Notes under the pieces: generated by a model
What the model was told of the DNA's origin: nothing
Database searches by the model: none
The model's input: only the letters and a program-made list of their open reading frames with translations
Position numbers and translations under genes: made by a program
Shown here: one piece after another, positions 54,101 to 55,924 of the stretch
Position numbering within the stretch: the stretch's first letter is position 1
Layout: every line of letters starts with the position of its first letter
DNA from: the human T2T-CHM13v2.0 reference genome, Homo sapiens
Assembly: GCF_009914755.1 (NCBI RefSeq)
Contig: NC_060940.1
Direction: 5' to 3' (one strand)
Length of the DNA: 64,000 bases

Positions 54101-54227
54101 AGCTTGTTGACATTTGAAGAAGTGGCCATGTATTTTTCCCAGGAAGAATGGGAGTTATTGGATCCCACTCAGAAGGCCCTCTACAATGATGTAATGCAGG
54201 AAAACTATGAGACTGTCATCTCTCTAG
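54101..54227 (+). CDS. ZNF75A: ZNF75A KRAB-A exon
   Basis: 127 nt, [42 protein letters not shown]; ctttag| and |gtaaag. An internal ATG at 54128 would give a 296-aa short form. Confidence 0.95.
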
Positions 54228-55358
54228 GTAAAGATTTTCCCTTCCCTTTATGTAGTTGAGTACTCTATTCTTGGCTTACTGAGAAGGAACCCCAGTGAGG
54301 GGTGTCTTACTGTTCCAGGAGCTGGTTGATTCTCATCTAGATGGTATAGGGGAGGGTGTAGGTAGTGTATCCAGATCACCTGTGGAGCTTTTTCCAAATG
54401 TACATGCCGATTGCTTATCCCACATTGAGTCCTTTATCCTTTCCTTCTCTTTTCCACCAAACTTCCTCTTCTGTGTCTTACTTATCTCAGTAAGGGGCAC
54501 ATTCATTATCCAGTGGCTCAAGGCATACAAAGTAACAGTTTTCCTTTATTCTGATCTTGTCATCATACCCCACTGTTAATTCATTAGCAAGTTTTCTTAG
54601 CTTTACTTTGACATATCCTGACTGCAACAATGTCTCATCTTCTTGCACTGTTAGCATCCTGGTGTAAGCCAGTGTCATCTTGAACCAGGCATACATGCGT
54701 AGCTTTTTAACAGGTGCGCCTGCATCTCCTTGTGCCCTTCCACAGTCTGTTTTCTATACAGAAGCTAGATTGATCTTTTAAAAACCTAATCAGATCATGA
54801 CATTTCCTTTCCTCAAAAGCATGTGGTCACTTACATTCAGAAAAAAAAGTCTGATATTACCAGGGCTCCAGGACACTCTACAGTCTGGTTCCTGCTCATC
54901 TGTCTGCCCTCATTTGCTACTGAAGCCCTTGCTCAGTCCTCACCAGCCACTTAGCTAGTCTCCTTGCTGTTAATTGAATTTGTCAAGTTCATTTTTACCC
55001 TCTTGTTTCATTTTATTTGGCACACTGGGCTTCCTGAATACTTCATTTTCAAATTGAGTACATCTAAGTTTTGCTCAACTCAGAAAAATGTATATCATGC
55101 AAGGGGAAAAAACGCTATATATATATATCTTTTTATTAACTTTCCTCTTGAAAACTGAGGATAATCATCTGGGGAACCGGTTCTAGGGGCTGGTAGACAC
55201 TTGGTTCTAATTTACAAAGAACCAAGTGGTTACCATACACACTCTTAAAAAGGTGTCCTATCTTTCCAGAAAGAATCAGGATTTTCTGTATTTTAGAAAT
55301 GAGCTAAGGATGATCATAGAAACAAGAGAAATATCCTCTGGCTCTTTTCCACCCACAG

Positions 55359-55450
55359 CTGTGCCTGCTCAACAGATTTTAGTCTTTCCTGAGCAGACAA
55401 ACACCAAAGACTGGACAGTGGCACCTGAGCTCCTCTTGCCTCAGTCCCAG
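55359..55450 (+). pseudogene. Duplicated ZNF75A linker pseudo-exon (donor GT mutated to TT)
   Basis: AVPAQQILVFPEQTNTKDWTVAPELLLPQSQ; acceptor cccacag intact; donor position reads CAG|ttgagc. Confidence 0.88.
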
Positions 55451-55797
55451 TTGAGCTGTGCTTTCCAGCAGTGTAGGGCTACCTGAGCATGACCTTATCT
55501 GCCTTTCCCTGCTGCCCAAGACCCACACTGCCCAGCATGTGCCCTGAGGCATGTTAGCCCCAGAGGTTCTACCCTGGACAATTAGGCTTGGCCCAGAGGG
55601 AACTGGGTACCTCCTAGGCTGTTTGCTGATCCCTTGGCTCCTTTTCTTCTGCCTTCGCCCCCGTGGGCCCCCGCCTTTTTTTTTCTTAAATCGTATTCTG
55701 TTAATTTCTTTAGCACCTGGCCTACCATGCAGTTCATACGCAGTTAGGCTGCTTCTGCAGTGGCAAGTTCAGAGCTGAAGTCCATTCTCTTCTTTAG

Positions 55798-55924
55798 AGC
55801 TTGTTGACATTTGAAGAAGTGGCCATATATTTTTCTCAGGAAGAATTGGAGTTACTGGATTACACTCAGAAGGCCCTCTACAATGATGTAATGCAGGAAA
55901 ACTGTAAGACTGTCATTTGTCTAG
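55798..55924 (+). other. Duplicated KRAB-A exon with open frame and intact splice sites
   Basis: 127 nt, [42 protein letters not shown]; ctttag| and |gtaaag; 10 nt differences from 54101-54227. Confidence 0.9.

What the first reader, a model, noticed from the sequence alone, without database searches (positions are those of the whole stretch)
54101..55924. Second, splice-competent KRAB-A exon in ZNF75A: candidate mutually exclusive or poison-exon switch
Seen: 55798-55924 is a 127-nt copy of the KRAB-A exon, with 10 nt differences, an identical acceptor context (ccattctcttctttag), a |gtaaag donor and no stop codon. Used instead of 54101-54227, it stays in frame and gives a variant KRAB-A with M>I, W>L, P>Y, Y>C, E>K and S>C. 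Used together with the first exon, the frame reads G|AG CTT GTT GAC ATT TGA, a stop after 5 codons. Established: KRAB-A binds TRIM28/KAP1, the EEW tryptophan is highly conserved, and premature stops upstream of further junctions trigger NMD. Inference: splice choice could toggle ZNF75A between a repressor form, an altered-KRAB form and NMD. The copy also lacks the internal ATG (ATA), so it cannot start the short isoform.
Basis: partly seen in the sequence, partly recalled or inferred. Interest (0 to 1): 0.82.

Follow-up and report, generated by a model that had tools for sequence, protein, structure and literature searches.

The report
Relic second KRAB-A exon in ZNF75A
The extra KRAB-A exon in a human ZNF75A intron is the decaying leftover of a second linker-plus-KRAB-A module that macaques and many other mammals are still predicted to encode; there is no sign that it works as a splicing switch today.

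Summary
55798-55924 is a 127-nt gap-free copy of the KRAB-A exon with 10 differences, identical splice-site windows and an open frame; it gives a TGA five codons in if spliced after exon 54101-54227.

The copy lies in a ~1.6-kb head-to-tail duplication (about 53417-55010 and 55022-57035) that also copies the upstream 92-nt coding exon. Together the two exons make 219 nt, or 73 codons, in frame.

In macaque, ZNF75A isoform X1 (610 aa) contains this module twice. It aligns residue for residue with a hypothetical human read-through, and its second box shares I10 and Y22 with the human copy. Of 120 retrieved ZNF75-type proteins, 88 have two to four boxes, mostly 73 aa apart.

In the human sequence the copied 92-nt exon has lost its donor (GT to TT). 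The orphaned KRAB-A copy carries L, C, K and C at positions where 100 other second-or-later boxes have W (100), Y (100), E (96) and S (99).

None of the 19 RefSeq ZNF75A transcripts uses it.

Verdict: a pseudoexon, lost on the human lineage after the macaque split. Low-level poison-exon inclusion stays untested. A regulated or mutually exclusive switch is not supported.

The parts
53417..55010 (+). Tandem duplication unit 1 (functional): intron, 92-nt linker exon, intron, KRAB-A exon, intron
   Evidence: Self-BLAST and MAFFT alignments; 1580 aligned pairs, 21.4% mismatches overall, 23.4% in introns. Boundaries approximate to about 20 nt.
53729..53820 (+). 92-nt coding 'linker' exon of ZNF75A (enters with one codon base already read); donor CAG|GTGAGC
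   Evidence: RefSeq annotation; phase and splice sites.
54101..54227 (+). KRAB-A exon in use (box 1), phase 0, holds the internal ATG at 54128
   Evidence: RefSeq; Pfam KRAB 82.8 bits; 1 of 127 lineage-specific changes against 70 of 628 in its introns, p=3.5e-5; 0 of 42 residues differ from macaque.
55022..57035 (+). Tandem duplication unit 2 (relic), interrupted by an Alu
   Evidence: ZNF75D on chrX matches both units but was found only once at its own locus.
55359..55450 (+). Relic copy of the 92-nt linker exon: acceptor intact, native frame open, 9 of 92 nt differ from the used exon
   Evidence: Its translation differs from macaque linker 2 at 1 of 31 residues.
55451..55452 (+). Donor lesion: TT where unit 1 and ZNF75D both have GT. 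The only disabling change seen in the module
   Evidence: Three-way alignment and splice-site print-out. The nearby GTs at 55458, 55471 and 55473 lie 7, 20 and 22 nt downstream, so none keeps the frame.
55798..55924 (+). Relic KRAB-A exon (box 2), the finding itself: splice sites intact, frame open, W17L/Y36C/E37K/S41C on the human lineage
   Evidence: Pfam KRAB 69.0 bits. Ortholog of macaque box 2 at P0194 residues 306-347; module tree 99/96.
55812..55814 (+). TGA reached when the relic exon follows exon 54101-54227 (frame +1); 110 nt before the exon end
56233..56550 (-). Alu insertion present only in unit 2, so inserted after the duplication
   Evidence: Masked repeat in the annotation; a single alignment gap with a poly-T head and a flanking direct repeat.

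Best explanation
55798-55924 is a pseudoexon: the surviving half of a second [92-nt linker exon + 127-nt KRAB-A exon] module. A ~1.6-kb tandem duplication inside ZNF75A created this module well before the human-macaque split, and probably before the boreoeutherian radiation. The module is 219 nt (73 codons), so both copies can be spliced one after the other into a single open frame. Macaque and most other placental mammals sampled are predicted to make such a protein, with two KRAB-A boxes (three or four in cats). On the lineage to the human reference, the second linker exon lost its donor (GT to TT at 55451). That left the second KRAB-A exon without a frame-compatible partner: alone after box 1 it runs into a stop. 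It has since drifted and collected substitutions at otherwise invariant KRAB positions, including the EEW tryptophan. The human gene now encodes a single-box protein. Shown: the duplication, the lesion, orthology to the macaque exon, human-lineage changes at invariant sites, and absence from the annotation. Inferred: that the donor change was the inactivating event, that the loss is old and fixed, and that the exon is now mostly skipped.
For: (1) Tandem units about 53417-55010 and 55022-57035, each with both exons. (2) 92+127=219 nt. A hypothetical human read-through of both modules stays open for 610 codons. (3) Macaque ZNF75A isoform X1 (P0194, cluster of 34 sequences) is 610 aa and matches that read-through position by position: 10/201, 1/31, 0/42, 1/31, 6/42 and 6/263 differences for the SCAN part, linker 1, box 1, linker 2, box 2 and the rest. 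Box 2 is faster than the rest, 6/42 vs 18/568, p=0.004. (4) Macaque box 2 shares I10 and Y22 with human copy 2 but keeps W17, Y36, E37 and S41. The module tree pairs Homo_m2 with Macaca_m2 (99/96) and Homo_m1 with Macaca_m1 (97/94). (5) Of the 120 proteins examined after the module search, 32 have one box, 76 two, 10 three and 2 four. 86 of 100 spacings are exactly 73 aa. (6) Across 250 boxes, W17 and Y36 are invariant, E37 is Glu in 244, and S41 is Ser in 247 of the 249 boxes where it could be read. Human copy 2 has L, C, K, C. (7) The donor is TT in unit 2 and GT in unit 1 and ZNF75D. (8) With ZNF75D as outgroup, 9 of the 10 exon differences are derived in copy 2 and 1 (synonymous) in copy 1. 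Copy 2 at 9/127 vs its introns at 60/628 gives p=0.50; copy 1 at 1/127 vs 70/628 gives p=3.5e-5. (9) 0 of 19 RefSeq ZNF75A mRNA rows overlap 55359-55924. (10) Pfam KRAB score falls from 82.8 to 69.0 bits; phmmer against the ZNF93 chain of 7Z36 falls from 33.5 to 24.8 bits.
Against: No RNA data were available, so 'mostly skipped' rests on annotation alone, and annotation under-reports NMD substrates. The non-human proteins are annotation-pipeline models (most of those listed have NCBI sources, a few are UniRef-only); I could not see their RNA support. No primate genome was available, so the macaque donor is inferred from its protein, and the date of the human loss is loose: 4 non-synonymous changes give 39 My at 1e-9 per site per year, 95% interval 11-100 My. 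Taking both unit-2 exon copies plus their splice-site windows, unit 2 has changed less than its introns (12/271 vs 60/628, p=0.010). I read that as past constraint, but it would also fit some remaining constraint. The 34-member cluster behind P0194 could hold ape or human records that I cannot list. Whether TT is fixed in people was not examined.
Confidence: 0.8

Rival explanations
1. Poison exon: the orphan exon is still recognised, is spliced in after exon 54101-54227 in part of the transcripts, brings in the TGA at 55812, and sends those transcripts to NMD. This would lower or regulate ZNF75A output.
For: Acceptor and donor windows are identical to those of the used exon. The orthologous exon is spliced in macaque models. 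The stop lies 110 nt before the next junction, beyond the usual 50-55-nt NMD rule, which I recall rather than tested. NMD substrates are easily missed by annotation.
Against: 0 of 19 RefSeq rows use it, although the set includes models with early stops such as NM_001324085 and XM_054313844. The exon's rate does not differ from its introns (p=0.50), and its recent changes look like drift. No paper among the 53 that mention ZNF75A (30 seen as a listing) or the 11 that also mention splicing (all seen as a listing; 2 opened, both irrelevant) reports it. Unregulated low-level inclusion would fit the main explanation and would not amount to a switch.
Confidence: 0.12
2. Mutually exclusive exon: 55798-55924 replaces 54101-54227 in some transcripts and yields a 537-aa protein with an altered KRAB-A.
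For: Same length and phase, open frame, 537 codons kept on substitution. The used KRAB-A exon is itself skipped in NM_001352495, NM_001352497, NM_001352498 and NM_001324085.
Against: Wherever both boxes are annotated they occur together in one protein, 88 of 120. The variant lacks W17 and Y36, which are invariant in 250 boxes. By the ZNF10 mutational scan as cited in PMC9753469 section 8, the equivalent Trp18 is required for silencing. No annotated transcript has it. No sign of selection on the copy.
Confidence: 0.03
3. The second module still codes in people through splicing that the annotation misses (for example a non-canonical donor), so a two-box protein is still made.
For: The whole 610-codon frame is still open. 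Linker 2 differs from macaque at only 1 of 31 residues. Unit-2 exons plus splice-site windows have changed less than the introns (p=0.010).
Against: The donor dinucleotide is TT. The three nearby GTs lie 7, 20 and 22 nt downstream and break the frame. There are four substitutions at invariant or near-invariant box positions. No such RefSeq transcript exists.
Confidence: 0.03

Closest known systems
Pseudoexons: ancestral coding exons lost from still-functional human genes (GENCODE/PhyloCSF survey, PMC6886504; passages of section 11 read)
   Same: An exon that codes in related species sits disabled in an intron of a human gene that still makes a protein. That paper reports such cases in 32 genes and discusses KIF25.
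   Different: Here the lost piece is one copy of an internal tandem repeat, so the human protein loses a repeat unit (a second KRAB-A box) and not a unique segment. ZNF75A is not named in that paper's main text (0 occurrences).
Unannotated intronic copies of neighbouring exons (Ivanov and Pervouchine 2022, PMC9013439; passages read)
   Same: An intronic, non-repeat-masked copy of an adjacent exon. That survey counted 4,027 such intronic targets in human genes.
   Different: ZNF75 has 0 occurrences in its main text. Here the origin, the partner exon, the coding ortholog and the disabling lesion are worked out.
Mutually exclusive exons born by tandem exon duplication, such as ATE1 7a/7b and SCN-alpha 5a/5b (abstracts seen in the listing)
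   Same: Tandem homologous exons of equal length and phase; including both breaks the frame.
   Different: The duplicated unit is two exons and is in frame as a whole. In other mammals the copies are added, not exchanged. The human copy shows no sign of constraint.
Poison exons coupled to NMD (general knowledge, recalled)
   Same: Inclusion would bring a stop more than 55 nt upstream of a junction.
   Different: Classical poison exons are conserved as such. This one is a coding exon in macaque and became 'poisonous' only because its partner exon died. Inclusion is unproven.
KZFPs with more than one KRAB domain: ZNF274 (search listing only) and ZFP28 'KRAB_2' (passage of the Tycko preprint)
   Same: More than one KRAB box in a single zinc-finger protein, as in non-human ZNF75A models.
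   Different: In ZNF75A the boxes are near-identical 73-aa tandem modules whose number varies between lineages: one in the human annotation, two in most species sampled, up to four in cats.

Membership tests
KRAB box (Pfam PF01352) | Score above the Pfam gathering threshold (20.4 bits) | tested here: met
   Copy 2 scores 69.0 bits and copy 1 scores 82.8 bits.
KRAB box (Pfam PF01352) | Conserved EEW tryptophan (ZNF93 Trp18), stated to be required for silencing | tested here: not met
   Leu at position 17 of copy 2. Register confirmed against chain 7z36_D. Requirement as stated in PMC9753469 section 8, citing Tycko 2020. W is present in 250 of 250 ZNF75-type boxes.
Pseudoexon (lost ancestral coding exon) | The orthologous exon codes in related species | tested here: met
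   Macaque P0194 residues 306-347; shared I10 and Y22; tree support 99/96. These are model proteins; their RNA support was not seen.
Pseudoexon (lost ancestral coding exon) | A disabling lesion in the lineage that lost it | tested here: met
   The partner exon's donor is TT, against GT in unit 1 and ZNF75D. Without the partner, the exon shifts the frame.
Pseudoexon (lost ancestral coding exon) | Relaxed constraint after the loss | tested here: met
   Four human-lineage replacements at invariant or near-invariant sites. Rate equal to introns, p=0.50; 7 non-synonymous and 2 synonymous changes on 102.3 and 23.7 sites.
Pseudoexon (lost ancestral coding exon) | Absent from mature transcripts | tested here: inconclusive
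   0 of 19 RefSeq mRNA rows, but no reads could be examined.
Mutually exclusive exon pair | Homologous exons of the same length and phase | tested here: met
   127 nt each, phase 0.
Mutually exclusive exon pair | Each exon used, and never both together | tested here: not met
   No human transcript uses copy 2. In 88 of 120 proteins from other species the boxes occur together.
Mutually exclusive exon pair | Both exons under purifying selection | tested here: not met
   Copy 1 is constrained (p=3.5e-5); copy 2 is not (p=0.50).
Poison exon | Inclusion gives a premature stop more than about 50-55 nt upstream of a junction | tested here: met
   TGA at 55812-55814, 110 nt before the exon end.
Poison exon | Inclusion observed, and raised when NMD is blocked | not testable with these tools
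Poison exon | Conserved as a non-coding regulatory exon | tested here: not met
   It is a coding exon in macaque and other mammals and drifts on the human lineage.

The most novel reading that the evidence does not exclude
A poison exon made by decay. When the linker exon of the second module lost its donor on the hominoid lineage, its still splice-competent KRAB-A partner changed from a coding exon into a frame-breaking one. Human ZNF75A would then lose part of its transcripts to NMD in a way that macaque does not. At the same time the human protein went from two KRAB-A boxes to one, which changes how this conserved factor engages co-repressors at its targets, reported to be the 3' ends of KZFP genes.
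Probability: 0.12. Interest if true: 0.6.

Novelty: new member of a known kind. Interest (0 to 1): 0.45.

Why it matters
This is a clean example of a change in protein architecture on the human lineage. A transcription factor that is predicted to carry two KRAB-A boxes in macaque, lemur, tree shrew, pika, carnivores, bats, horses and even-toed ungulates has only one in the human annotation, and the cause is visible as a single splice-donor change. It gives a natural experiment on what a second KRAB-A box does. It warns that human-based models of ZNF75A may not carry over to other mammals. It also shows that a well-formed 'spare' exon in an intron can be a recent casualty and need not be a regulatory device. 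If the orphan exon is still spliced, it would show how a poison exon can arise as a by-product of exon loss.

Tried and rejected
Chance resemblance: rejected. The similarity runs over about 1.6 kb with the same exon order.

Open frame as a sign of function: rejected. 61% of simulated exons with 9 random substitutions stay open, and the dead 92-nt exon copy is open too.

Identical splice sites as proof of present selection: not accepted. Zero changes in 26 intronic splice-site positions has p=0.073 at the unit-2 intron rate. Two purely intronic patches are as similar as the exons, or more so. Constraint lasting until after the macaque split explains it.

My own first reading, a copy that had been neutral ever since an old duplication: dropped after searches showed the exon coding in other mammals. 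The low divergence of the unit-2 exons (p=0.010), which I had set aside as a caveat, is now explained by that past constraint.

ZNF75CP and ZNF75BP as old snapshots of ZNF75A mRNA: rejected. They share ZNF75D-type states.

Single ancient duplication versus repeated duplications: not resolved. Modules group by species in pika, pig, hedgehog, bat, horse and rhinoceros, by position in human and macaque, and the backbone is open with only 72 columns. I favour one event plus gene conversion because the 73-aa unit is the same in nearly all cases (86 of 100 spacings), but that is inference.

Literature: 53 papers mention ZNF75A (30 seen as a listing) and 11 also mention splicing (all seen as a listing). 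I read passages of five of these; none concerns this exon. The two tandem-exon-duplication papers that I opened have 0 occurrences of ZNF75 in their main text. A search for two/tandem/double KRAB phrases found 28 papers (20 listed; none with ZNF75A in its title or abstract start). So I found no description of this exon loss or of a two-box ZNF75A, but supplements were closed. Those that could bear on this are Supplemental Data S1 of PMC6886504, table S1 of 10.1101/2025.03.03.638093, and the exon lists of PMC9013439 and PMC5740500.

Not attempted:
- ESE/ESS or MaxEnt scoring. No model tables were at hand, and the site windows are identical anyway.
- Alu subfamily dating.
- A protein search for the diagnostic junction or variant peptides. 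That would need a joined query, which the rules bar, and clustering at 90% identity would hide such isoforms.
- The third protein search, for the same clustering reason.
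Full report
**1. The observation**

The two stretches 54101-54227 and 55798-55924 are each 127 nt. They align without gaps and differ at 10 positions. The 23-nt acceptor window and the 9-nt donor window are letter-for-letter the same in both.

The annotated coding exons put the KRAB-A exon in phase 0. 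In that frame the copy is open and reads M10I, W17L, P22Y, Y36C, E37K and S41C, plus three silent differences.
- Replacing the used exon by the copy keeps a 537-codon frame.
- Placing the copy after the used exon reads ELVDI and then TGA at 55812-55814, which gives 279 aa. The stop lies 110 nt before the exon end.
- The ATG at 54128 that starts the short isoform is ATA in the copy.

**2.

The copy is not an isolated exon. Repeat finding, self-BLAST and global alignment all show a head-to-tail duplication of about 1.6 kb. Unit 1 spans roughly 53417-55010 and unit 2 roughly 55022-57035. An antisense Alu (56233-56550) was inserted into unit 2 later.

Each unit holds two exons. The upstream 92-nt coding exon 53729-53820 has its own copy at 55359-55450: 9 of 92 nt differ, the acceptor is intact and the native frame is open. 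Its donor, however, reads CAG|TT where unit 1 and ZNF75D read GT.

The two exons add up to 219 nt, or 73 codons. A transcript with both modules would therefore stay in frame, and in the human sequence that hypothetical read-through is still open for 610 codons.

**3. Divergence within the genome**

Introns of the two units differ by 23.4%. The exons differ by 7.9% and 9.8%.

ZNF75D on chrX was found only once at its own locus and matches both units, so it serves as an outgroup. Three-way counts are and the tests:

| Sequence class | Changes on the unit-1 branch | Changes on the unit-2 branch |
|---|---|---|
| KRAB-A exon | 1 of 127 | 9 of 127 |
| Introns | 70 of 628 | 60 of 628 |

- The used exon is strongly constrained (p=3.5e-5).
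- The copy is not distinguishable from its introns (p=0.50). It has 7 non-synonymous and 2 synonymous changes on 102.3 and 23.7 sites.
- One result pointed the other way. Taking both unit-2 exon copies with their splice-site windows, unit 2 has changed less than its introns (12/271 vs 60/628, p=0.010).
- Identity along the units is patchy: two purely intronic tracts are as similar as the exons, or more so.
- The intron distance between the units (K=0.285) is about 0.79 of the ZNF75A-ZNF75D distance. That translates to 65-143 My depending on the rate assumed.

**4. The comparative result that settles what it is**

A protein search with the last coding exon returned three carnivore and rhinoceros models with two KRAB-A boxes. 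I then searched with the doubled module of one of them (P0038). Of the 120 proteins examined after that search, 32 have one box, 76 two, 10 three and 2 four. Over all 236 retrieved proteins, 86 of 100 spacings between successive boxes are exactly 73 aa.

Two-box models come from macaque, mouse lemur, tree shrew, pika, horse, rhinoceros, hedgehog, warthog, musk deer, killer whale, bats, pangolin and carnivores.

Macaque ZNF75A isoform X1 (P0194, a cluster of 34 sequences) is 610 aa, the same length as the hypothetical human read-through. The two can be compared position by position:

| Region | Differences |
|---|---|
| SCAN part | 10 of 201 |
| Linker 1 | 1 of 31 |
| Box 1 | 0 of 42 |
| Linker 2 | 1 of 31 |
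| Box 2 | 6 of 42 |
| Rest | 6 of 263 |

- Box 2 is the outlier (6/42 vs 18/568, p=0.004).
- Macaque box 2 shares I10 and Y22 with the human copy but keeps W17, Y36, E37 and S41.
- In a tree of modules, Homo_m2 pairs with Macaca_m2 (99/96) and Homo_m1 with Macaca_m1 (97/94).

The human copy is therefore the ortholog of a macaque coding exon. M10I and P22Y predate the split. W17L, Y36C, E37K and S41C arose afterwards on the human side.

Across 250 ZNF75-type boxes, W17 and Y36 never vary, E37 is Glu in 244, and S41 is Ser in 247 of the 249 where it could be read. The human relic is the only box seen that departs at W17 or Y36.

This also explains the p=0.010 result in section 3: the unit-2 exons were under constraint for most of their history and were released only recently.

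**5. Most likely history and present state**

- A two-exon module was duplicated in tandem inside ZNF75A before the human-macaque split. Since it occurs in both Euarchontoglires and Laurasiatheria, the duplication probably predates the boreoeutherian radiation.
- Both modules were spliced in, giving a protein with two KRAB-A boxes.
- On the lineage to the human reference, the donor of the second linker exon changed to TT.
- No frame-keeping donor is nearby: the next GTs lie 7, 20 and 22 nt downstream.
- The second KRAB-A exon then had no compatible partner and began to drift.
- Four non-synonymous changes on 102.3 sites suggest tens of millions of years: 39 My at 1e-9 per site per year, 95% interval 11-100. 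The time since the macaque split caps this figure. I therefore expect the loss to be shared by great apes, but I could not test that.
- None of the 19 RefSeq ZNF75A mRNA rows overlaps 55359-55924.

**6.

The poison-exon outcome is correct as arithmetic. The exon plausibly remains recognisable to the spliceosome, so some unproductive splicing cannot be excluded, and with no reads available I could not test it.

A regulated or mutually exclusive switch has nothing in its favour. The boxes are added together wherever both are annotated. The copy shows no constraint on the human lineage. The variant box lacks the tryptophan that, according to section 8 of PMC9753469 citing the ZNF10 mutational scan, is required for silencing although it is not in the KAP1 interface (register checked).

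The 'repressor form' premise is itself uncertain. Section 6 of preprint 10.1101/2025.03.03.638093 names seven SCAN-ZFPs that bind TRIM28 with high confidence. ZNF75D is among them and ZNF75A is not (table S1 not seen). ZNF75A carries Glu at the position of ZNF93 Asp8 in every box I saw, where ZNF75D has Asp.

**7. Comparison with what is known, and novelty**

Lost ancestral coding exons inside working human genes are a recognised class. The GENCODE/PhyloCSF survey reports them in 32 genes (PMC6886504, section 11 passages). Intronic copies of neighbouring exons are common: one survey counts 4,027 targets (PMC9013439).

I found no mention of ZNF75A in the main text of those papers or of the human MXE survey, and no paper describing a two-box ZNF75A. 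Their supplements were closed and may list it.

I file this as a new member of a known kind. It is of moderate interest as a tidy change in KZFP domain architecture on the human lineage, with a visible cause and clear tests.

**8. Limits**

- The non-human proteins are annotation models; I could not see their RNA support.
- No primate genome, human variation table or RNA read was consulted.
- The module tree has only 72 columns and an unresolved backbone, so one ancient duplication with gene conversion, as against repeated duplications, remains an inference.

Noticed in passing
window 54548-54647 and 56563-56662: A deep-intron patch about 320-420 nt downstream of each KRAB-A exon differs at only 1-6 positions per 60-nt window (1 in the best window) between the two units, against a 23% intron average. 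It was found nowhere else in the genome search. Either a gene-conversion tract or an intronic element kept in both units.
   Followed up: partly
window 54307-54407 and 56006-56105: A second intronic low-divergence tract (5-7 mismatches per 60 nt), which also aligns to the ZNF75D intron.
   Followed up: no
window 56233-56550: An antisense Alu present only in unit 2, with a poly-T head and a flanking direct repeat. It was inserted after the duplication, about 310 nt downstream of the relic exon's donor. Its subfamily and age were not determined.
   Followed up: partly
window 54726-54818 (copy about 56741-56833): This stretch matches short copies on chr1, chr2, chr3, chr10 and chr11 at 77-90% identity: an old interspersed repeat that predates the duplication.
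   Followed up: no
window 54119-54121 and 55816-55818 (codon 7 of each box): ZNF75A has Glu where ZNF93 has the KAP1-contacting Asp8 (FEEV against FEDV in ZNF75D), in both human copies and in every ZNF75A-type box examined. This may relate to ZNF75A being absent from a preprint's list of high-confidence TRIM28 binders.
   Followed up: partly
proteins P0121, P0122 (4 boxes); P0123, P0126-P0133, P0135 (3 boxes): Cat-family ZNF75A models carry three or four tandem linker+KRAB-A modules; otter, badger and a fruit-bat model carry three. The module number therefore varies between lineages.
   Followed up: partly
L005 (chr11, ZNF75CP) and L006 (chr12, ZNF75BP): Processed pseudogenes in which the 92-nt exon abuts the KRAB-A exon. 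Their sequence states match ZNF75D and not ZNF75A. ZNF75BP has a 2-nt deletion and in-frame stops in the box.
   Followed up: partly
window 54101-54227: The KRAB-A exon in use is itself skipped in four curated transcripts (NM_001352495, NM_001352497, NM_001352498, NM_001324085), so even the functional box is an alternative exon in the human gene.
   Followed up: no
proteins P0142-P0145, P0149-P0151, P0155, P0158: Many two-box proteins on autosome-sized contigs are named 'ZNF75D' or 'ZNF75D-like' by NCBI, although they sit on the same contig as 'ZNF75A' models and have ZNF75A-type boxes. Laurasiatherians also have a separate 'ZNF75A-like' gene with doubled modules (P0038, P0053, P0056). Naming in this family is unreliable.
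   Followed up: no
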